A stretch of 64,000 nucleotides of DNA from the NCBI GenBank assembly GCA_016188245.1, contig JACPIE010000013.1, positions 21,058 to 85,057 on the forward strand, given 5' to 3'. The translations under genes were made by a program, and so were the position numbers. This document shows positions 3,934-40,226 of this stretch, piece by piece. The DNA is from Candidatus Woesearchaeota archaeon. Lineage in GTDB: Archaea; Nanobdellota; Nanobdellia; Woesearchaeales; GW2011-AR4. A model generated the notes under the pieces. That model made no database searches. It saw only the letters and a list, made by a program, of their open reading frames with translations, and was not told the DNA's origin. Numbering within the stretch: position 1 is the stretch's first letter; the number at the start of each line of letters is the position of its first letter.

Positions 3934-4833
3934 TTATAAGTTTACAAGATACACTCCGATTAAGATTAAAATTACAGCGGCAGATTTAGCAAAAAGCGAT
4001 TTTTTGCTTATATCTTCCTTTATTATGCCCGGCAGGAAAATTGAAAAGCCCAAGGCAATGATGAAAACAAACACCGGCCACACTGCATTGCTCAACGCTG
4101 TAACCAATGATATGGGGCCTTTTGTTATGGCATAGCCAAGCAGTATGAATGCCGAGAAATCAATGGCCATCTTGAACAAAAGCAGCTTTTTTGCATTATT
4201 CCCTGCAGATTTGAATGTTTTAACAAAATCATTCCTGACAGAAGGGAGCAGCAGGACAAAAACTGCGCTGAAGCTTGCCAGCCTGAGCCACAGGAATGCG
4301 CTCCAAAAGCTTGTTACGCTGAATACGTGCTTTGAAGCTACAAGCGCAACAGCGATCAAAAATGTCGAAATTATCATCAATGAAACTGCCCTGCTTAGCC
4401 TGAAAGCTTTTCCTGACGGCTTGTAGGAAACAATTAAGCCGGCCATAATCCACATAAGAAAGCCTGCCAAATGGCTTCTTGTCAAAGATTCTCCCAAAAA
4501 TAAAAATGAGATTCCCAAAGTGAATATTGGAGTAAGCTGGTTAAGCACTATGATTTTTGAGATTTCCTCATATTCCACAGCCTTGTAATAAAAGGCGATT
4601 CCTGCGCTGAAGAATATGCCGTAAGCCATCACAATCAGGAAATCGGCTGGTCTTAGCGCTTCAAGGCCGGCAAAAGGCAATAAGAACAGCATAAATACAT
4701 TCATGAACCCGTTCAGGACAATGTAGACAAGGGGGTTTTGTATGTAGCCTTTTGAAATCACAATCTTGTCTATGATGGAAGTTGCAGACCAAACGGCGTA
4801 AGCCATCAGCACAAAATAAATCCAGCCTTCCAT
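3934..4833 (-). CDS. EamA/DMT-family transporter
   Basis: 299 aa. About ten TM helices arranged as two similar halves. Confidence 0.7.
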   Translation of the reverse strand: MEGWIYFVLMAYAVWSATSIIDKIVISKGYIQNPLVYIVLNGFMNVFMLFLLPFAGLEALRPADFLIVMAYGIFFSAGIAFYYKAVEYEEISKIIVLNQLTPIFTLGISFLFLGESLTRSHLAGFLMWIMAGLIVSYKPSGKAFRLSRAVSLMIISTFLIAVALVASKHVFSVTSFWSAFLWLRLASFSAVFVLLLPSVRNDFVKTFKSAGNNAKKLLLFKMAIDFSAFILLGYAITKGPISLVTALSNAVWPVFVFIIALGFSIFLPGIIKEDISKKSLFAKSAAVILILIGVYLVNL

Positions 4834-32758: not shown

Positions 32759-33205
32759 CTAAATATCCACCACCACGGTAGCTTTGTAGCCATTCTTTTC
32801 TTTCTTGAGCTCGAACATGTGCATTGTGATTGCCTTTATGTCATTTTCCAGATGCTGCACTTCGGGATTTATCCTGTCGCCTTCAAGGACTGCCTTGAGG
32901 CAGTTTTTCTTGCCCTCGCTTATTGCAACATGAACATTCTTAAAAACCATGTACTTTGAATCCTTCAAAAATAAGATTTCAGAAAGAAAATCATACAAAA
33001 GATTATCAAGCTTCACGTTTTCCAGCTCAAATTCAACTTTCTTTACTGCATCAATCGTTTCAACATCTGCACTTAATTCAAAGATTGCCGATGCTGCGTT
33101 CTCGAATAATTCGTTAAGGGTTTTTCCGTAAGCTTCAAATGCAATGTCGGCTATCGCTACATCTTCAAGAAACCTGTATTTTGTCCTGTCGTTGTTGATG
33201 TTCAT
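32759..33205 (-). CDS. archease (RtcB activator)
   Basis: YRFLEDVAIADIAFEAYGKTLNELFENAA ... ATVVVDI. ATG at 33205 is preferred over the TTG at 33229. Lies 1 nt after the ZIP stop. Confidence 0.85.
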   Translation of the reverse strand: MNINNDRTKYRFLEDVAIADIAFEAYGKTLNELFENAASAIFELSADVETIDAVKKVEFELENVKLDNLLYDFLSEILFLKDSKYMVFKNVHVAISEGKKNCLKAVLEGDRINPEVQHLENDIKAITMHMFELKKEKNGYKATVVVDI

Positions 33206-33206
33206 T

Positions 33207-33956
33207 TTAATGCCGGAACAGTTCTCCAATAATCCATATTAAAAAGATGCCAAGCGCAAGCAAAGCAAACTGGACAAGTGATTTTTTCAGGTCCTTCTCC
33301 TTTTGTATTTCTGGAATCAAATCAGTGCTTGCAATGTAAACAAAACCGCCAACGGCAAAAGATGTCAGGAAGGTGCTTGAGTTTTGGATTGCGCTTGAGT
33401 AAAAGTATGCAGCCAATGCCCCTATAACTGCAGTCAGGGCAGTCATAAAATTGTAAACCAGCGCTTTCGTTTTTGAGAATCCGCCATATATTAAGATTGA
33501 AAAATCAGCTATCTCCTGGGGAATTTCGTGCGCAATTATCGCTATTGTGGCAACAATGCCGAGCGCTGTGCTGTTCATGAAGCTCACCGCGATAACCGCG
33601 CCGTCAAGGAAATTGTGGATTGCGTCCCCAACAATATTAAGGTACGTGAAGCCGTGCACTTCCTCGTGCTCATGCCCTGCATGGTGGTGGTGCCAGTGCA
33701 GGAACTTTTCCAGAATGAAAAAAGACAATATGCCGAGCAGAATAAAAACAGGCACGCTTTCTTTAAATCCTTCTTCAAGAGCTTCTGGAAGCAGGTCAAG
33801 AAATGCCGCCCCCAGCAGGGTTCCTGCTGCAAAGCTTACAAGAAAAAACAAAATTTTATTCAGGGTTTTTTTCCGGAAAAAAATCAGGATCCCCAGAATG
33901 GAGACTAAGCTGACTATAAAGACTGCGATAAGGATTTGTGCAAGGATTGTCAACAT
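33207..33956 (-). CDS. ZIP-family divalent metal transporter
   Basis: 249 aa. His-rich loop HWHHHHAGHEHEE and HEIPQEIADF. Confidence 0.88.
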   Translation of the reverse strand: MLTILAQILIAVFIVSLVSILGILIFFRKKTLNKILFFLVSFAAGTLLGAAFLDLLPEALEEGFKESVPVFILLGILSFFILEKFLHWHHHHAGHEHEEVHGFTYLNIVGDAIHNFLDGAVIAVSFMNSTALGIVATIAIIAHEIPQEIADFSILIYGGFSKTKALVYNFMTALTAVIGALAAYFYSSAIQNSSTFLTSFAVGGFVYIASTDLIPEIQKEKDLKKSLVQFALLALGIFLIWIIGELFRH

Positions 33957-33965
33957 TTTATATCA

Positions 33966-35468
33966 TCACCCCTTTATATTCCCCACGGGCTTCAGTCCTA
34001 TAACCGGCTTTGATATTCCAGCCTGTGAAACCGCGTCAATCACATCGTTAATGTTTTTATAGGCAAAACCAGCTTCCTCAGCCAGCCCGGGCATTGAAGT
34101 TGCTTTCACATAAATCCCTCTCTTTTCCATGTCTTTCTGCAATTGCTCTCCTCTTACTTGGTGCTTTGCAGCAGCCCTTGACATTGTCCTGCCGCTTCCA
34201 TGTGCTGTGCTGCCAAAAGTTTCATCCATTGCCTTTTGTGTCCCTACTAGCAAAAATGAGCCAGTTTCCATCGAGCCCCCTATGATTACGGGCTGCCCTG
34301 TGTTTTTGAAAAGCGGTGCAAGCTCAGGATGACCCGGAGGAAATGCTCTTGTGCTTCCCTTTCTGTGAACAACCAATTTTTTCTTGTGCCCATCAACAAC
34401 ATGCTCTTCCAGCTTTGCTATATTATGCGCAACATCATAAACCATGTGCATCTCAAGCTTTTCAGCATCTGTTTTGAAAACTTTTGAAAATCCTTCCCTA
34501 ATCCTGTGTAGAATAACTTGGCGATTTGCAAAAGCCATGTTCGCTGCGCATGCCATTGCCTTGTAATAATCCTGGCCTTCATTGCTTTGGAAAGGGGCGC
34601 ATGCAAGCTCTCTGTCGTAAACCTCAATATTATATTTTTTCATCACTCCTTCAAAAATCCTCAAATAGTCTGTTCCAATCTGGTGCCCAAACCCTCTTGA
34701 GCCGCAGTGAACCATGACAACAACCTGCTCTGGTGTGTGAATTCCAAATTTCTTTGCAATTTCAGCATCAAAGATATTTTCTGCCCTTGCAACCTGTATT
34801 TCTAGATAATGGTTTCCGGAGCCCAAAGTTCCCAGTTGCTTTATTCCGCGTTCCATTGCTCTTGAGCTTACTTTCTCCGGCTCCGCCCAGTCAATCCTTC
34901 CATAGCCTTCTGTCCTTTCCAAATCTTCTTTCCATCCATATCCATTTTCAGCGCACCATTTTGAGCCGTAAGCCATGATTTCCCTGAATTGTGACTTGCT
35001 CGCGTCAACAAATCCTCTTGAGCCGACTCCGGAAGGAACAGTCTTGAACATCGTGTCAACCAATTCTTTTAATTTTGGCTGGACTTCTTTATAGGTCAGA
35101 TTAGTTGTAACCAGGCGCATTCCGCAATTTATGTCAAAGCCGATTCCGCCCGGAGAGATAACTCCTGTTTCTGCGTCAAAAGCAGCAACGCCGCCGATTG
35201 GAAATCCGTAGCCCCACTTGTCTTGCTGTAGAACTAACTACAAAGCAAAATGACCATCGGGCATACAAAAACTGTATTTCTGGATTCCTGGCAGGCAAGC
35301 CACATTCGTTACCTGATTAAAGACACCATTATCCATTTCCGCAAGAAGCTTTTTAGTGGCATATATTCTTGCAGGAACTAGCATTCCTTTCTTATAGGAT
35401 TGCGGTATCTCCCAAACTACATCACTAATTTGCCTGATGTCTTTTGGTCTTTCCAAATTTCGTTCCAT
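33966..35468 (-). CDS. rtcB: RNA-splicing ligase RtcB, reading frame interrupted by a 33-nt in-frame insert carrying TAG
   Basis: ORFs 35238-35468 (ending ...CMPDGHFAL then stop) and 33966-35120 are in the same frame. The stretch between them reads LVLQQDK-WGYGFPIGGVAAFDAETGVISPGGIGFDINCG-MRLV. Removing 35217-35249 restores the consensus PDGH-WGYGFP and an ORF of about 489 aa. SD GGAGGA lies before the ATG at 35468. Confidence 0.85.
35217..35249 (-). other. 33-nt hairpin insert in rtcB (candidate BHB-like mRNA intron)
   Basis: mRNA sense: CAU|UUUGCUUUGUAGUUAGUUCUACAGCAAGACAAG|UGG. UUGCU pairs with AGCAA and GUAG pairs with CUAC. The exonic GUC pairs with GAC, which leaves a 3-nt bulge AU|U at the 5' junction. 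Confidence 0.5.
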
Positions 35469-36049: not shown

Positions 36050-36466
36050 ATGCAGATAAAAGACCTAAAGCCAAAGCAGGGAAATGTGGATGTTGTTGTT
36101 GATGTAATTGATGTCGGCGAAACTAGGGAGTTCAACAAGTTCGGCAAGCCGGGCAGGGTTGCAAATGCAATTGCAAAAGACGAGACTGGCGACATAAAGC
36201 TTACATTGTGGAATGATGACATTGAAAAAGTAAAAGCAGGAGACAAGGTTCACCTTTCAAACGGGTATGTGAATGAATGGCAGGGAGAGATGCAGCTGAC
36301 AACAGGAAGAATGGGAAAGATTGAAGTTGTCGGAAAAGCAAGCGCTGAGGATAGTTCTGATGCAAAGATAAGGACAAACATTCCTGCAGAAGAAAGCAAA
36401 GAGGATTTTGAAGAGCTTGATGTCGAAGAAGAAGACGTTGAAGATGCCGATGATGGGGAAATCTAA
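36050..36466 (+). CDS. single OB-fold ssDNA-binding protein (RPA/SSB-like) with acidic tail
   Basis: 138 aa. Has VDVVVDVIDVGETREFNKFGKPGRVANAIAKDETGDIKLTLWNDD and a C-terminal EELDVEEEDVEDADDGEI. Confidence 0.75.
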   Translation: MQIKDLKPKQGNVDVVVDVIDVGETREFNKFGKPGRVANAIAKDETGDIKLTLWNDDIEKVKAGDKVHLSNGYVNEWQGEMQLTTGRMGKIEVVGKASAEDSSDAKIRTNIPAEESKEDFEELDVEEEDVEDADDGEI

Positions 36467-36891: not shown

Positions 36892-37671
36892 ATGAAATTT
36901 GATGTGTTATTAAATTTTGAAGATGTACTCAGTACTTACAAATCAACTGAAGCCGGAGTAAAAGCACTGTCCAAATATTCATATTGGTTTCCTTTAAGAG
37001 AGTCTCCAAGTTTAGCTGGAATAGTTGCAGATTTAATGGGTGATGGCCATTTGCAAGATTATCCTAAATTAAGACTTGATTATACTTCAAAATCTATAGA
37101 TGAGCTTAACAGATTTAATACCGAGGTTTATAATGTGTTTGGAGTTAAAGGAAAGATAAGAAAATGTAACACAAACCATTATGGCACATTAAATTTAGGT
37201 ATTAACTCTAAACCTCTCGTTAGAGTTTTAAAGTTGATAGGAGTACCAACCGGTTCAAAGGTTTTGACTAAATTTTCAATTCCTAAATGGATTCTTGAAG
37301 ATCGAATTTTGCTTTCAAGATTTATAAATAGATTATTTAGCTGTGAGGGAAGTGTGGATTTAAAAAGCAAATATTTAGAAATTCAAATGTATAAGGCTGA
37401 ACACCTAATAGAAAACGGGATTTTATTTTTCAAGGAAATCAAATTCTATTTGGATGCTTATTTTGATATTAAAACAACTGAGCCATTTACAGGCAACACT
37501 TTTAATTTGCGTTGCGATAGAGTTAAAACAAGACCAATCCGATTAAAGATCAAACAAATGAATTCCTTACTTAAATTTAAAAACTTAGTAGGTATGGAAG
37601 ATTCTGCCAAGATGAAAAGATTAAACGTCATAACAGAAAGTAATTTAAATAAAATGCAGATTCTGACATAG
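36892..37671 (+). CDS. free-standing double-motif LAGLIDADG homing-endonuclease-like protein
   Basis: 259 aa. Motif 1 is SLAGIVADLMGDGHL and motif 2 is LSRFINRLFSCEGSV. AT-rich gene. Ends 15 nt before the tRNA. Confidence 0.7.
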   Translation: MKFDVLLNFEDVLSTYKSTEAGVKALSKYSYWFPLRESPSLAGIVADLMGDGHLQDYPKLRLDYTSKSIDELNRFNTEVYNVFGVKGKIRKCNTNHYGTLNLGINSKPLVRVLKLIGVPTGSKVLTKFSIPKWILEDRILLSRFINRLFSCEGSVDLKSKYLEIQMYKAEHLIENGILFFKEIKFYLDAYFDIKTTEPFTGNTFNLRCDRVKTRPIRLKIKQMNSLLKFKNLVGMEDSAKMKRLNVITESNLNKMQILT

Positions 37672-37690
37672 AGGCTGAGTATTTATGGGG

Positions 37691-37721
37691 ATTTTATAAG
37701 CTGAGGTTTATAGGACCAGAA
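37691..37721 (+). other. tRNA-Phe intron 1 (31 nt, acceptor stem position 4/5)
   Basis: TGG (37686-88) pairs with CCA (37716-18). The bulges are GG|A and AA|C. An inner 10-bp helix pairs 37692-37701 with 37706-37715. Confidence 0.75.
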
Positions 37722-37738
37722 CGGTAGCTCAGCCTGGG

Positions 37739-37766
37739 TAAAAACAGGCTTGCCTGTGTTCAGGAA
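37739..37766 (+). other. tRNA-Phe intron 2 (28 nt, D-loop about 20/21)
   Basis: A 4-bp helix pairs CCTG (37733-36) with CAGG (37761-64). The bulges are GG|T and AA|A. Removal gives the consensus D-loop AGCCTGGGA. Confidence 0.75.
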
Positions 37767-37783
37767 AGAGCACACGGCTGAAG

Positions 37784-37824
37784 GACGGTATTCTGAGCAA
37801 AGAGATTTGCGATGAAATTCCGAT
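37784..37824 (+). other. tRNA-Phe intron 3 (41 nt, canonical 37/38)
   Basis: CTGA (37778-81) lies opposite TCCG (37819-22), with 3 of 4 positions paired. The bulges are AG|G and AT|A. Confidence 0.8.
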
Positions 37825-38015
37825 ACCGTGGTGTCAAGAGTTCAAATCTCTTCCGCCCCACTTTATTTTTTGTGCAATGCCTGCTATGAAAAATCAAAAG
37901 CGGATTGCTTCCATTACGTTATTAATCCAGAAGCCGCTCTCGTGATTTTTAATTTTATTTTTATTGTGATGTTTATTTTTATTGTATGGTTACTCCAGGC
38001 TGAAATCAAATCTTT

Positions 38016-40226
38016 TTAACTGCTCAATGTAGCAGTCAAAATCCTTCCGGCAATTATGTTGAACAGGAGCATCACGGCCCCTGATATGAAGATATAAAGC
38101 AATGTGCTCCTTATCAAATTGTTTCCCAGCTGGTATCTTTCATTGAGCTTATCGCTTCCATTCTCAACGCCGTTTGCAATGACTGTAAGTATGAAAGTGA
38201 TCTGCACTACATAAATTCCTACAATCAGCTGGAAGTAATAAGTTGGTATGCCGTCGCCGAACAGGCTTATTATTCCTGTCGGGGCTGCAGCCTCTGCCCC
38301 TCCTGCTGATTCTGTAACCTGCTGCAGCTGCCCGCTTAATTTACCCAGTATGGCCGTAATCATCGAGGTTATGCCTATGACAACTCCTGCAATTGCGGGC
38401 GTCAAAAATTTGATCTGGGAATGCATTGAAGCTATTATGTCCGCCATCAGGTCTTTCAGCCTTTCATTGACTTTGTGTATCTCTTTGATGTACCTTGCAA
38501 CATTAGTCAAAGCCTGGGCTGCAATCAAAGGGCCTTTCTTTATGGCCTGAGTCAGCACTTTCATGGAGCTTTCTATAAGATTGCTTGGGAACGAGACAAG
38601 AGCGCCGTGCAGCGGGTCAAAGATGGCTTTTTCTATGCCCATCCCCAGCCTCCTTATATTCATGCTTACGAGCTGAAAAAAGCTGCCGGAAACAGTGCCT
38701 TCCATAACATCTGCAACTTTGCCGACTGCAATCTCGACAGGCAGGTTGTCCCCTAGCCTGTTTCCAAGCTGGAATAATGCATTTGCAAACTCAAGCTCAA
38801 GCTGCTTTGCCCTGTCCCTTATTTTTATAACATTCTTTGACTTAAGGCGGTAATACAAGCCGATTGCAAGGCCAAAGCTCAATGGGATGAACAGGCTCAT
38901 TACTGACGCCCCAAGCCCGTAAGGGCCTATTTCCTGGCCGGTTGCGGAGCTTGTCCTGTACTCCAAAAAACAGTATCTGTGCCCGCAGGAAGCTGCCAAG
39001 TCTTCATCCCCGAATCCAAAATCCGGAAGTCCGGCTGCATGAAGCAGTATCGGGCTTAATCCCAGCAAAAATAAAGCAACGCCCAAAAAAACGCTGAAAA
39101 ATATCGGGCTTATCTGGAATTCTTTATTGCCGAACTTTATCAGCACATTCCTGTATTTTTTAAGCTCAGGATTCTCTTCTGCAATGTCTGTGTTTCCATA
39201 GCCTGTGGGCCTTTTTGAAAGGATGCTCTTGCCGAGATAATAAACAACAACTGTAAGAATCACATTGTAGATTACCGCAAGATGGTACCATCTCACATTT
39301 TCCATAAAGCTTACAACAAGGGGCAGGATAACCAATCCGAGGATTGGAAGGATAATGCCGAGCATGTGCAGCATTGTTATCGGGTTTTGAAGGTTATGCG
39401 CGTAGTGCAGCATCTTTTCATAGGTTTCGTCAAGAATCACATCAAGGGCCTTGTCAAGCGCATTCAGCCTCCTTGATTCTTCCCCTTCATACAGCGAGCT
39501 TTCAATAAGGTGGAATGATTCAATAAATTCAAGGTTCCATTTCTTCCATGTCTCAAGGTACATATCCAGTGATTCCTTGACAGAAGAGTATTTTTCCGTT
39601 TCAACATCCCAAAGCACTTTTTTCATATCAAGGGCCAATGGGGGAGCCAGGTGCTGGCTCGCAAACTCGATTGCCTTTTCCAGGTTTGAAGTGTGCCTCA
39701 TGTATGTGACAACATAAAAAATGCACAAAACCATCTGGTTGCTTGATTTCAGCCTCCAGTTGTTCGCTATGAATTCCGGCGTTCTTGCAAGCGGCTTGAT
39801 CATGCAGGCAGCGCCAATTACAAAAAGCAGCACGAAGAAATTTGACTGGAAAACAAGGAATGCAAACAATGAGCCAAACAGGGCTGCTGCAATCGGCATC
39901 AAAAACGAAAATGAAACAGCGCCTGCCGGGGTTATGTTTAAATGGGTTATGTCTATGGATTCCTGGATTACTTGTGCCTGCTTGGCATCAGGCTTTATCT
40001 TGAGAAGCTTTTCGCTTAGATTGCATAACTTCTCATATATCGTCATTTGCCTGGGCAGAAATTCCTCTTTGAATTCCCGGTACTCCTTGGTTGTGGGCTT
40101 TGAAGGGTATTCCTCAACTTTTGCGCCCAGCTCTTTCTCCAGTTGTGTCTTGTAGAGCTCCATCAAGGACTTCAGCTTCTGCTTATCTATCTCTTTCGGC
40201 ATATTTGTAGAATATAATCTGCTCAC
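38016..40226 (-). CDS. polytopic membrane platform protein (FlaJ/TadC/PilC-like)
   Basis: 736 aa with many TM helices. Lies immediately downstream of the FlaI/PilB-type ATPase. Assignment rests mainly on synteny and topology. Confidence 0.6.
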   Translation of the reverse strand: MSRLYSTNMPKEIDKQKLKSLMELYKTQLEKELGAKVEEYPSKPTTKEYREFKEEFLPRQMTIYEKLCNLSEKLLKIKPDAKQAQVIQESIDITHLNITPAGAVSFSFLMPIAAALFGSLFAFLVFQSNFFVLLFVIGAACMIKPLARTPEFIANNWRLKSSNQMVLCIFYVVTYMRHTSNLEKAIEFASQHLAPPLALDMKKVLWDVETEKYSSVKESLDMYLETWKKWNLEFIESFHLIESSLYEGEESRRLNALDKALDVILDETYEKMLHYAHNLQNPITMLHMLGIILPILGLVILPLVVSFMENVRWYHLAVIYNVILTVVVYYLGKSILSKRPTGYGNTDIAEENPELKKYRNVLIKFGNKEFQISPIFFSVFLGVALFLLGLSPILLHAAGLPDFGFGDEDLAASCGHRYCFLEYRTSSATGQEIGPYGLGASVMSLFIPLSFGLAIGLYYRLKSKNVIKIRDRAKQLELEFANALFQLGNRLGDNLPVEIAVGKVADVMEGTVSGSFFQLVSMNIRRLGMGIEKAIFDPLHGALVSFPSNLIESSMKVLTQAIKKGPLIAAQALTNVARYIKEIHKVNERLKDLMADIIASMHSQIKFLTPAIAGVVIGITSMITAILGKLSGQLQQVTESAGGAEAAAPTGIISLFGDGIPTYYFQLIVGIYVVQITFILTVIANGVENGSDKLNERYQLGNNLIRSTLLYIFISGAVMLLFNIIAGRILTATLSS

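What the first reader, a model, noticed from the sequence alone, without database searches (positions are those of the whole stretch)
37687..37860. tRNA-Phe(GAA) gene carrying three BHB introns (4/5, D-loop, 37/38)
No contiguous tRNA is visible, but removing three segments yields a textbook 74-nt tRNA-Phe. The segments are 37691-37721 (31 nt), 37739-37766 (28 nt) and 37784-37824 (41 nt).

In the product all 21 stem pairs are Watson-Crick. The D-loop is the consensus AGCCTGGGA, the anticodon loop is CTGAAGA with G37, the T-loop is TTCAAAT and the discriminator is A73.

All three junctions obey the same geometry: a 4-nt helix strand, then 2 nt, then the cut, on both sides of each intron. For intron 2 the helix is CCTG/CAGG with bulges GG|T and AA|A. 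For intron 1 it is TGG/CCA plus a 10-bp inner helix. For intron 3 three of four positions pair.

As far as I recall, multi-intron tRNAs with non-canonical positions are best known from Thermoproteales and a few other lineages, and they imply a relaxed-specificity splicing endonuclease. Finding one here fits the candidate rtcB mRNA intron 2.4 kb away.

There is also a loose direct repeat. The leader plus the first tRNA bases GCTGAGTATTTATGGGG (37674-37690) resembles GCTGAGGTTTATAGGA inside intron 1 (37700-37715). This may bear on how the intron arose.
Basis: partly seen in the sequence, partly recalled or inferred. Interest (0 to 1): 0.78.

Follow-up and report, generated by a model that had tools for sequence, protein, structure and literature searches.

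The report
Three-intron tRNA-Phe gene in a Woesearchaeon
This is a real phenylalanine tRNA gene of a tiny DPANN archaeon, cut into four pieces by three short protein-spliced introns; it is a known kind of gene, but close relatives carry two to five introns at ten different sites in the same gene, which gives a clear view of fast intron gain and loss.

Summary
The observation and the interpretation both hold. Removing 37691-37721, 37739-37766 and 37784-37824 from 37687-37860 gives a 74-nt tRNA-Phe(GAA) that ARAGORN calls. ARAGORN and Rfam find no tRNA in the unspliced window.

RtcB similarity places the window in Woesearchaeota (DPANN). The same gene sits in the same neighbourhood in over 15 related genomes. 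There each of the three insertions is exactly absent in some genomes, and the exons keep a cloverleaf that is 100% paired, with 10 of 21 pairs showing compensatory changes.

Across 52 intron copies, 50 have a 4-nt helix strand, then 2 nt, then the cut on both sides, which is bulge-helix-bulge (BHB) geometry.

New points:
- The 4/5 intron needs a 5' leader (GGCTGAG) that pairs with the D-arm. This leader is present in 6/6 genes with that intron and 0/12 without.
- Relatives hold 2-5 introns at ten positions.
- Intron 3 carries a kink-turn consensus and an alternative helix over the 3' splice site.

rtcB and archease lie 2.2-5 kb away. No EndA gene was found among the ORFs scanned.

Verdict: a new member of a known kind.

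The parts
37643..37654 (+). TATA-like promoter box (ATTTAAATAAAA), about 35 nt upstream of G1. It predicts a transcription start near 37672-37674.
   Evidence: Read from the sequence. A TTTAAAT box sits at an equivalent distance in all orthologues. The start site is inferred from the usual archaeal spacing of the TATA box, about -26.
37673..37679 (+). 5' leader strand GGCTGAG. It pairs with D-arm CTCAGCC (37728-37734) to form the outer helix of the BHB of intron 1.
   Evidence: The helix forms in both the MFE and the centroid fold. It is present in 6/6 genes with a 4/5 intron and 0/12 without. The variants GGTTGAG and GGTTGGG keep the pairing through G.U.
37687..37690 (+). Exon 1, GGGG (tRNA positions 1-4).
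   Evidence: The sequence is contiguous with exon 2 in L002, L005 and others.
37691..37721 (+). Intron 1 (31 nt, position 4/5). Central helix is 37685-37688 with 37716-37719, the bulges are GG|A and AA|C, and the inner 10-bp hairpin is 37692-37701 with 37706-37715.
   Evidence: The BHB conformer is -22.6 kcal/mol against an MFE of -23.8. Homologous introns occur in L013, L022, L024, L020 and L018 with a covarying hairpin.
37722..37738 (+). Exon 2, CGGTAGCTCAGCCTGGG (positions 5-20).
37739..37766 (+). Intron 2 (28 nt, D-loop, position 20/21). Central helix is CCTG 37733-37736 with CAGG 37761-37764, and the bulges are GG|T and AA|A.
   Evidence: Central helix pairs 4/4 in all 10 orthologous copies. 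The BHB conformer is -13.4 against an MFE of -17.7 kcal/mol. The intron is absent in L024, L004, L020, L018, L012 and L027.
37767..37783 (+). Exon 3, AGAGCACACGGCTGAAG (positions 21-37, including anticodon GAA at 37780-37782).
37784..37824 (+). Intron 3 (41 nt, canonical position 37/38). Central helix is CTGA 37778-37781 with TCCG 37819-37822 (3 of 4 pairs), and the bulges are AG|G and AT|A.
   Evidence: ARAGORN -i calls it as a canonical intron. The 12 distinct copies are aligned in A1, with pair counts. It is absent in L020, L018 and L012.
37794..37815 (+). Kink-turn consensus inside intron 3: TGA (37794-37796), covarying hairpin GCAAA-GAGA-TTTGC (37797-37810), then GAT-GA (37811-37815).
   Evidence: The core bases are invariant or nearly so while the hairpin stem covaries. 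The fit to the k-turn pattern (C-stem, 3-nt bulge, G.A then A.G) was checked by hand. Function is not shown.
37785..37791 (+). Intron-3 segment ACGGTAT. It is complementary to 37823-37829 (AT|ACCGT), an alternative helix that covers the 3' splice site.
   Evidence: 95% of cells are paired over 7 bp, with one compensatory change.
37825..37860 (+). Exon 4 (positions 38-73), ending in discriminator A73. No CCA is encoded.
37862..37871 (+). Oligo-T run (TTTATTTTTT), the likely archaeal transcription terminator.
   Evidence: Read. T-rich trailers are present in the orthologues. The terminator role is inferred.
33966..35468 (-). rtcB, the RNA ligase expected to join the exons (context, acts in trans). 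It is itself interrupted by a 33-nt BHB-like intron at about 35222-35254.
   Evidence: Pfam RtcB, E = 5.5e-143.
32759..33229 (-). Archease, described in the literature as an RtcB cofactor (from memory) (context, acts in trans).
   Evidence: Pfam Archease, E = 1.1e-37.

Best explanation
Window 37687-37860 is very probably the functional tRNA-Phe(GAA) gene of a Woesearchaeota (DPANN) archaeon. Three short BHB-type introns interrupt it, at 4/5, 20/21 and 37/38.

**Proposed pathway**
1. Transcription starts about 13-15 nt upstream of G1, from a TATA-like box, and ends at the oligo-T run.
2. The 5' leader GGCTGAG pairs with D-arm bases 11-17. This builds the outer helix of a near-canonical bulge-helix-bulge motif around intron 1.
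3. Introns 2 and 3 sit in relaxed BHB motifs: a 4-bp or 3-of-4 central helix, with the cut 2 nt into each bulge.
4. The archaeal splicing endonuclease (EndA) cuts at the six sites.
5. RtcB, with archease, joins the exons.
6. RNase P removes the leader, and CCA is added after transcription.

The leader:D-arm helix excludes the D-stem, which is the outer helix of intron 2. The introns are therefore probably removed in sequence, intron 1 first.

**Shown here:** the exon/intron boundaries, the cloverleaf, the BHB geometry, the leader helix, and the presence of the ligase and archease genes.

**Inferred:** the transcription start, the enzymes acting, and the order of splicing.
For: **The spliced product is a tRNA**
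- ARAGORN calls it tRNA-Phe.
- The spliced-alignment score is 103 against 14.5 +/- 5.7 for shuffles.

**Relatives confirm the boundaries**
- RtcB is up to 93% identical to Woesearchaeota MAGs.
- Orthologous genes lie between the same ssb-like gene and the same 736-aa gene.
- All 16 curated genes splice in silico to a 74-nt tRNA-Phe.
- Each of the window's introns is exactly absent in some relatives.

**The exons behave as one cloverleaf**
- 100% of 273 cells are paired.
- 10 of 21 pairs show changes on both sides, and 0 of 500 shuffles reach this.

**BHB geometry**
- Mean 3.44 of 4 central-helix pairs at the expected register, against 2.9 or less at shifted registers, over 52 introns.
- The intron-1 BHB conformer lies within 1.2 kcal/mol of the MFE.

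**Leader helix**
- It forms in the MFE and the centroid fold.
- It co-occurs with the 4/5 intron in 6/6 genes and 0/12 without, Fisher p = 5e-5, not corrected for shared ancestry.

**Trans-acting factors and literature**
- RtcB and archease genes are nearby.
- DPANN archaea are reported to have loop-bearing EndA, many disrupted tRNA genes and incomplete predicted tRNA sets.
Against: - There are no expression or splicing data.
- No EndA gene was found among about 50 window ORFs scanned with Pfam, so the endonuclease type is unknown.
- The BHB conformers of introns 2 and 3 lie 4.3 and 6.6 kcal/mol above the local MFE. Their splice sites sit in internal loops rather than strict 3-nt bulges.
- Only 64 kb of the genome is visible, so a second, uninterrupted tRNA-Phe gene elsewhere cannot be excluded.
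- I could not run a covariance model (tRNAscan-SE or Infernal) on the spliced sequence.
Confidence: 0.93

Rival explanations
1. It is a decaying tRNA pseudogene broken by three insertions that are never removed. The real tRNA-Phe gene lies elsewhere.
For: ARAGORN and Rfam do not call it. Only 64 kb of the genome is visible. One relative, L008, has lost the 5' part of the gene at this locus.
Against: - The exons are 93% identical across relatives, with compensatory changes that keep every stem pair.
- Every insertion sits in BHB geometry.
- The promoter box and the terminator are retained.
- No intron-free copy appears in any of the fetched loci.
Confidence: 0.03
2. The real gene is the contiguous tRNA-like stretch 37782-37860. 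In that reading the '5' half' is what is here called intron 3.
For: The Rfam tRNA model gives 18.7 bits (E = 0.23) for 37782-37860. ARAGORN at a lowered threshold calls tRNA-Phe there.
Against: - The score is well below the Rfam gathering score of 29.
- The proposed acceptor and D stems contain mismatches.
- The supposed 5' half varies in length and sequence among relatives, and is absent in L020, L018 and L012, which keep the upstream exons.
Confidence: 0.01
3. The insertions are removed, but not by the EndA/RtcB pathway. They would be self-splicing group I or II introns or some other ribozyme.
For: Group I introns do occur in Woesearchaeota rRNA genes.
Against: - The inserts are 28-41 nt, far too short for group I or II introns.
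- There is no Rfam match.
- The junctions fit BHB geometry.
- rtcB and archease are present.
Confidence: 0.01
4. Intron 3 is more than a spacer. Its kink-turn-like motif binds L7Ae, and it works as a minimal box C'/D'-like guide. The segment ACGGUAU pairs with AU|ACCGU and places C39 opposite the fifth base upstream of the CUGA box. The result would be 2'-O-methylation of position 39 before splicing, as reported for Um39 in the pre-tRNA-Trp intron.

This adds to the main explanation rather than competing with it.
For: - UGA-[covarying hairpin]-RWUGA is conserved in 13 of 14 distinct copies.
- The spacing GGUAU-NN-UGA is fixed.
- The 7-bp helix is 95% paired, with one compensatory change.
- The precedent and the N+5 rule are described in PMC7994747.
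Against: - There is only one k-turn-like motif, and no terminal C and D boxes.
- The duplex is 7-8 bp, whereas usual archaeal guides are 10-12 nt.
- The introns are close relatives, so conservation may simply reflect shared ancestry.
- Three orthologues lack the intron entirely.
- Fibrillarin, Nop5 and L7Ae genes were not seen in the window.
Confidence: 0.15

Closest known systems
Multi-intron tRNA genes of Thermoproteales (for example Pyrobaculum calidifontis)
   Same: Several short BHB introns per tRNA gene at non-canonical positions as well as 37/38. Up to three per gene are reported. Standard tRNA finders miss them.
   Different: - The lineage is Woesearchaeota (DPANN) and the genome is AT-rich (40% GC).
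- The endonuclease is probably not the crenarchaeal (alpha-beta)2 type with the Crenarchaea-specific loop.
- Relatives of this gene reach four and five introns.
Disrupted tRNA genes of DPANN archaea with loop-bearing EndA (Kaneta et al. 2018, PMC5829648; ARMAN-2 epsilon2 EndA)
   Same: Same superphylum. That paper reports multiple-intron tRNAs, incomplete predicted tRNA sets, and alpha4 EndA carrying the L3 loop in several DPANN lineages.
   Different: That survey covered one Woesearchaeota genome with tRNAscan-SE and gave no gene-level account. Here the gene structure, the leader helix and the intron turnover are resolved. EndA was not found in this window.
Intron-rich tRNA genes of Asgard Atabeyarchaeia and Freyarchaeia (PMC11291895)
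   Same: More than 90% of tRNA genes have introns and over half have several. The supplementary table has columns for up to four introns.
   Different: A different superphylum. No comparison of one orthologous gene across close relatives is reported there.
Box C/D guide inside the pre-tRNA-Trp intron of Haloferax and Pyrococcus
   Same: An intron at 37/38 with k-turn-forming boxes whose guide pairs with the anticodon-arm 3' strand and targets position 39.
   Different: The tRNA-Trp intron is a complete C/D RNA with C, D', C' and D boxes and two guides. Here there is only one k-turn-like motif and a 7-8-bp duplex, and no function has been shown.
Split tRNA genes of Nanoarchaeum equitans
   Same: Sequence outside the mature tRNA (leader or trailer) supplies a helix that builds the BHB cut by EndA. 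This is from my own knowledge and the reviews.
   Different: Here the gene is a single transcription unit. The leader pairs in cis with the D-arm rather than with a second transcript.

Membership tests
Archaeal BHB (EndA/RtcB-spliced) tRNA intron | Removing the insert restores a canonical cloverleaf tRNA. | tested here: met
   ARAGORN calls tRNA-Phe on the spliced product. The cloverleaf is 100% paired, with compensatory changes, across 13 distinct orthologues.
Archaeal BHB (EndA/RtcB-spliced) tRNA intron | Each exon-intron junction lies in a bulge-helix-bulge motif or a relaxed form of it: a 4-bp central helix with cuts placed symmetrically, 2 nt into each bulge. | tested here: met
   Central helix pairs are 3/4, 4/4 and 3/4 for the three introns. 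The register test over 52 introns peaks at the expected offset. Intron 1 is close to strict hBHBh', while introns 2 and 3 are relaxed.
Archaeal BHB (EndA/RtcB-spliced) tRNA intron | Related genomes carry intron-free alleles at exactly the same site. | tested here: met
   Each of the three introns is absent in some orthologues, with the flanking exon sequence contiguous.
Archaeal BHB (EndA/RtcB-spliced) tRNA intron | The genome encodes the splicing endonuclease EndA. | not testable with these tools
   No tRNA_int_endo hit among about 50 window ORFs. The rest of the genome is not available. The literature reports alpha4 EndA with an L3 loop in DPANN lineages.
Archaeal BHB (EndA/RtcB-spliced) tRNA intron | The genome encodes the RtcB ligase. 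| tested here: met
   RtcB at 33966-35468 (E = 5.5e-143) and archease at 32759-33229.
Archaeal BHB (EndA/RtcB-spliced) tRNA intron | The mature spliced tRNA and the excised (often circular) introns are detected in RNA. | not testable with these tools
Box C/D guide RNA encoded in a tRNA intron | A k-turn formed by C (RUGAUGA) and D (CUGA) boxes. | tested here: inconclusive
   One motif, UGA-[hairpin]-RWUGA, fits the k-turn consensus in 13 of 14 copies. L7Ae binding is untested.
Box C/D guide RNA encoded in a tRNA intron | Two box pairs (C/D and C'/D') with guides of 10-12 nt. | tested here: not met
   Only one box pair is present and the duplex is 7-8 bp. The usual guide lengths are given.
Group I / group II self-splicing intron | A conserved catalytic RNA core of hundreds of nucleotides. 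| tested here: not met
   The inserts are 28-41 nt and there are no Rfam matches.
tRNA pseudogene | Relaxed constraint: stem mismatches accumulate and the promoter is lost. | tested here: not met
   All 21 stem pairs are kept in all orthologues, with compensatory changes. The TATA-like box and the T-run are kept.

The most novel reading that the evidence does not exclude
The tRNA-Phe gene of this Woesearchaeota clade is a hotspot of very fast BHB-intron turnover.
- Genomes whose mature tRNA sequence is identical carry completely different intron sets. L002 has 20/21 and 37/38. L020 has 4/5, 18/19, 27/28, 46/47 and 59/60.
- L020's five introns are more than the three, or four, per gene that I found reported.
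- Some introns arrive with, or recruit, extra functional RNA. The 4/5 intron has a co-evolved 5' leader helix. The 37/38 intron has a minimal single-k-turn, C'/D'-like module that would bind L7Ae and guide 2'-O-methylation of C39 before splicing.
Probability: 0.2. Interest if true: 0.7.

Novelty: new member of a known kind. Interest (0 to 1): 0.52.

Why it matters
**Annotation.** Standard finders miss this essential gene completely. This helps explain why DPANN genomes appear to lack tRNAs. One relative's copy is even miscalled tRNA-Leu.

**Intron evolution.** One orthologous gene in closely related genomes shows ten intron positions and two to five introns per copy, while the exons are nearly invariant. 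This is a natural experiment on how BHB introns are gained, lost and moved, and on how relaxed the endonuclease of this lineage must be.

**Splicing dependence.** The tRNA gene lies 2.2 kb from an rtcB gene whose own mRNA carries a BHB-like intron. That points to an organism unusually dependent on this splicing pathway.

Tried and rejected
- **Leader/intron-1 direct repeat as an insertion footprint.** Its score is no better than shuffled introns (p = 0.25). No intron class shows a significant copy of its upstream exon, and the intron copy is not conserved. The leader motif is instead explained as a helix strand.
- **Contiguous tRNA at 37782-37860.** Below threshold and contradicted by relatives.
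- **Other hidden tRNAs in the window.** A T-arm scan found only this one.
- **EndA in the window.** Pfam scans of about 50 ORFs found none.
- **Metagenome scan with ACGGCTGAAGN{25,50}GATACCGT.** Only L103, L108 and L186 were real tRNA-Phe genes.
- **ARAGORN survey of related loci for intron load.** Uninformative, because the loci all cover the same region.
- **Reading the intron-3 motif as a full terminal C/D pair.** The register does not fit (hand analysis).
- **A literature claim that five introns is a record.** Papers state a maximum of three, but a 2024 Asgard table has an intron-4 column. I therefore make only a cautious claim.
- **Covariance-model scoring of the spliced product.** The tools search only the window and fetched loci, so this could not be done.

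Full report
**1. The observation**

Removing 37691-37721 (31 nt), 37739-37766 (28 nt) and 37784-37824 (41 nt) from 37687-37860 gives GGGGCGGTAGCTCAGCCTGGGAGAGCACACGGCTGAAGACCGTGGTGTCAAGAGTTCAAATCTCTTCCGCCCCA. ARAGORN calls this a 74-nt tRNA-Phe(GAA) with a perfect cloverleaf.

- On the unspliced window, ARAGORN finds no tRNA at all.
- Rfam finds nothing at gathering threshold.
- In permissive mode, Rfam gives only an 18.7-bit tRNA match over 37782-37860, against a gathering score of 29.
- With introns 1 and 2 removed, ARAGORN -i calls tRNA-Phe with a 41-nt canonical intron.

As a chance control I aligned the mature tRNA of an independent orthologue to the locus, allowing introns. The score is 103. 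Dinucleotide shuffles give 14.5 +/- 5.7 (maximum 31), and all other tiles of the window, on both strands, give 35 or less.

**2. Where the window comes from**

The neighbouring genes include:
- rtcB at 33966-35120, plus an upstream exon;
- archease at 32759-33229;
- an Ssb-like OB-fold gene at 36050-36466;
- a LAGLIDADG-type ORF at 36892-37671;
- a 736-aa ORF at 38016-40226 on the minus strand, with no Pfam match.

A genome scan with RtcB returned 80 loci. The best are 85-93% identical, and most are labelled Woesearchaeota or Nanoarchaeota (DPANN).

**3. Comparative test**

BLAST and an intron-aware alignment found the orthologous tRNA-Phe gene in the same neighbourhood in 17 of these loci. 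It lies between the ssb-like gene and the 736-aa gene.

- After curation, 16 genes (the window plus 15 loci) each splice in silico to a 74-nt sequence that ARAGORN calls tRNA-Phe(GAA).
- The intron sets differ between genomes. Each of the window's introns is exactly absent somewhere:
  - 4/5 is absent in L002, L005 and others.
  - 20/21 is absent in L024, L004 and others.
  - 37/38 is absent in L020, L018 and L012.
  - This fixes the three boundary pairs to the nucleotide.
- The cloverleaf was counted on the 13 distinct mature sequences (11 from these genes, plus L103 and L186 from the metagenome scan). All 273 cells are paired.
- 10 of 21 pairs show changes on both sides, and no shuffle of 500 reaches this.

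Exons separated by introns therefore evolve as one structured RNA. This excludes a pseudogene.

**4. Junction geometry**

For 52 intron copies I compared two 4-nt strands: the one ending 2 nt before the 5' cut and the one ending 2 nt before the 3' cut.

- They form 3.44 of 4 pairs on average at this register, against 2.9 or less at any shifted register.
- 50 of 52 copies have 3 or 4 pairs.
- In the window the values are ATGG/CCAG (3/4), CCTG/CAGG (4/4) and CTGA/TCCG (3/4).

Constrained folding gives:

| Intron | BHB conformer (kcal/mol) | Local MFE (kcal/mol) | Character |
|---|---|---|---|
| 1 | -22.6 | -23.8 | two clean 3-nt bulges, 10-bp inner helix |
| 2 | -13.4 | -17.7 | relaxed, splice sites in internal loops |
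| 3 | -7.6 | -14.2 | relaxed, splice sites in internal loops |

It also fits the report that DPANN lineages have loop-bearing EndA together with many disrupted tRNA genes. I found no EndA gene among about 50 window ORFs.

**5. A new point: the leader helix**

The leader GGCTGAG (37673-37679) is the exact complement of D-arm CTCAGCC (37728-37734).

- The helix forms in the MFE and the centroid fold of the whole precursor.
- It supplies the outer helix of the intron-1 BHB.
- All six genes with a 4/5 intron have such a leader (GGCTGAG, GGTTGAG or GGTTGGG; the last two keep pairing through G.U).
- None of twelve genes without that intron has it. Fisher p = 5e-5, not corrected for shared ancestry.
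- A TATA-like box about 35 nt upstream of G1 places the expected start at the first base of this strand. This rests on the usual archaeal promoter spacing and is an inference.

The leader helix uses bases 11-17, so it excludes the D-stem, which is the outer helix for intron 2. Sequential splicing, with intron 1 first, is therefore likely. This too is an inference. tRNAscan-SE's authors note that neighbouring introns may need ordered removal, and that introns near the ends need flanking sequence to be recognised.

**6.

The similarity between 37674-37690 and 37700-37715 is real. However, it is not above shuffled introns (p = 0.25). No intron class carries a significant copy of its upstream exon, and the intron copy is not conserved in relatives. 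I reject it as a clue to the intron's origin.

**7. Intron 3 in detail**

Twelve distinct copies align well.

- The anticodon stem is 100% paired, the central helix 75%, and the internal hairpin covaries.
- The most conserved intron bases are UGA just 5' of the hairpin and RWU-GA just 3' of it. Together with the hairpin as C-stem, this matches the kink-turn consensus: C-stem, 3-nt bulge, then G.A and A.G.
- L103 and L186 from metagenomes share the motif.
- A second conserved feature is an alternative 7-bp helix between intron bases ACGGUAU and AU|ACCGU across the 3' splice site. It is 95% paired, with one compensatory change.
- The spacing to the UGA box is fixed. The "fifth base upstream of box D'" rule would therefore point to C39.
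- The pre-tRNA-Trp intron of Haloferax and Pyrococcus guides Cm34 and Um39 in this way.

Against this reading, only one box pair is present and the duplex is short. I rate the guide idea at about 0.15.

**8. Comparison with what is known**

- Multi-intron tRNA genes are well described in Thermoproteales, where reviews give a maximum of three introns per gene.
- They are reported for DPANN in survey form.
- They are abundant in some Asgard genomes, where a supplementary table allows for four.

The window's gene is therefore a new member of a known kind, in a lineage where gene-level descriptions are scarce.

What stands out is the clade-level picture:
- Nine intron positions occur among close relatives: 4/5, 13/14, 18/19, 20/21, 27/28, 37/38, 44/45, 46/47 and 59/60.
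- A tenth, 53/54, occurs in the more distant L058.
- There are two to five introns per gene.
- Genes with identical mature sequence have disjoint intron sets (L002 versus L020).

**9. Limits**

- There are no RNA data.
- No EndA gene was found.
- Only 64 kb of the genome is visible.
- No covariance-model score could be obtained for the spliced form.
- The comparative counts come from related sequences, so they are not independent events.

Noticed in passing
window 35222-35254 (- strand), within rtcB 33966-35468: rtcB is interrupted by a 33-nt insert (TTTGCTTTGTAGTTAGTTCTACAGCAAGACAAG) with an in-frame stop, between ...PDGH and WGYGFPIGG.
- 37 related loci are contiguous at this site, and 16 carry a 30-33-nt insert there, of at least four unrelated sequences.
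- The hairpin covaries and BHB geometry fits (GGTC/GACA 3 of 4, inner helix TTGC/GCAA).
- The mRNA of the RNA ligase therefore appears to need that ligase for its own splicing.
   Followed up: partly
window 36892-37671 (+): A 259-aa ORF with two LAGLIDADG-like motifs ends 16 nt before the tRNA (weak Pfam hit).
- It is present at this spot only in the window, L013 and L022, and inverted in L027.
- Distant homologues lie next to or inside rtcB in L029, L035, L037 and L039.
- It looks like a mobile free-standing homing endonuclease gene. The tRNA promoter box lies inside its 3' end.
   Followed up: partly
L020:49-258 (- strand) and other loci: The orthologous tRNA-Phe genes carry four introns (L022, L024, L027, L004, L018) or five (L020: 4/5, 18/19, 27/28, 46/47, 59/60, with no canonical intron). 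L002 and L020 have identical mature sequences but share no intron.
   Followed up: yes
L004 and L027, introns at 13/14: The two 13/14 introns are the only ones of 52 that do not fit the 4-nt/2-nt/cut geometry (0 of 4 pairs). Their boundaries are ambiguous by one base, and no shifted register I checked by hand fitted either.
   Followed up: partly
L008:731-900 (- strand): Only the 3' part of tRNA-Phe is present, from the 27/28 intron onward, and it starts 8 nt after the ssb stop codon. The 5' exons and the promoter are missing from the whole 12.9-kb locus. This could be a deletion, a pseudogene or a split gene.
   Followed up: partly
L186 (around 4640-4700) and L009: There are very short introns at 18/19: 11 nt (AGTTAGGCTAA) in L186 and 16 nt in L009. 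They consist of little more than the central helix strand and the bulges.
   Followed up: no
L058:12441-12545 (+): A more distant relative (RtcB 65% identical) has a tRNA-Phe with a single 31-nt intron at the T-stem/T-loop junction (53/54). ARAGORN misses this one too.
   Followed up: partly
alignment A2, columns 54 and 62: Ten of 13 distinct orthologous tRNA-Phe sequences have A53-U61 closing the T-loop, instead of G53-C61, which I recall as nearly universal. The window's gene has G53-C61.
   Followed up: no
L010:5929-6102: ARAGORN -i miscalls the three-intron tRNA-Phe of L010 as tRNA-Leu(TAA) with a 77-nt intron. This is an example of how such genes can be wrongly annotated.
   Followed up: no
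window 32759-35468: Archease, a ZIP-family transporter gene and rtcB lie together on the minus strand, 2.2-5 kb from the tRNA gene.
   Followed up: no
window 1-64000: ARAGORN and Rfam detect no other tRNA in 64 kb, and the window holds only one T-arm-like hairpin, the one in this gene.
   Followed up: partly
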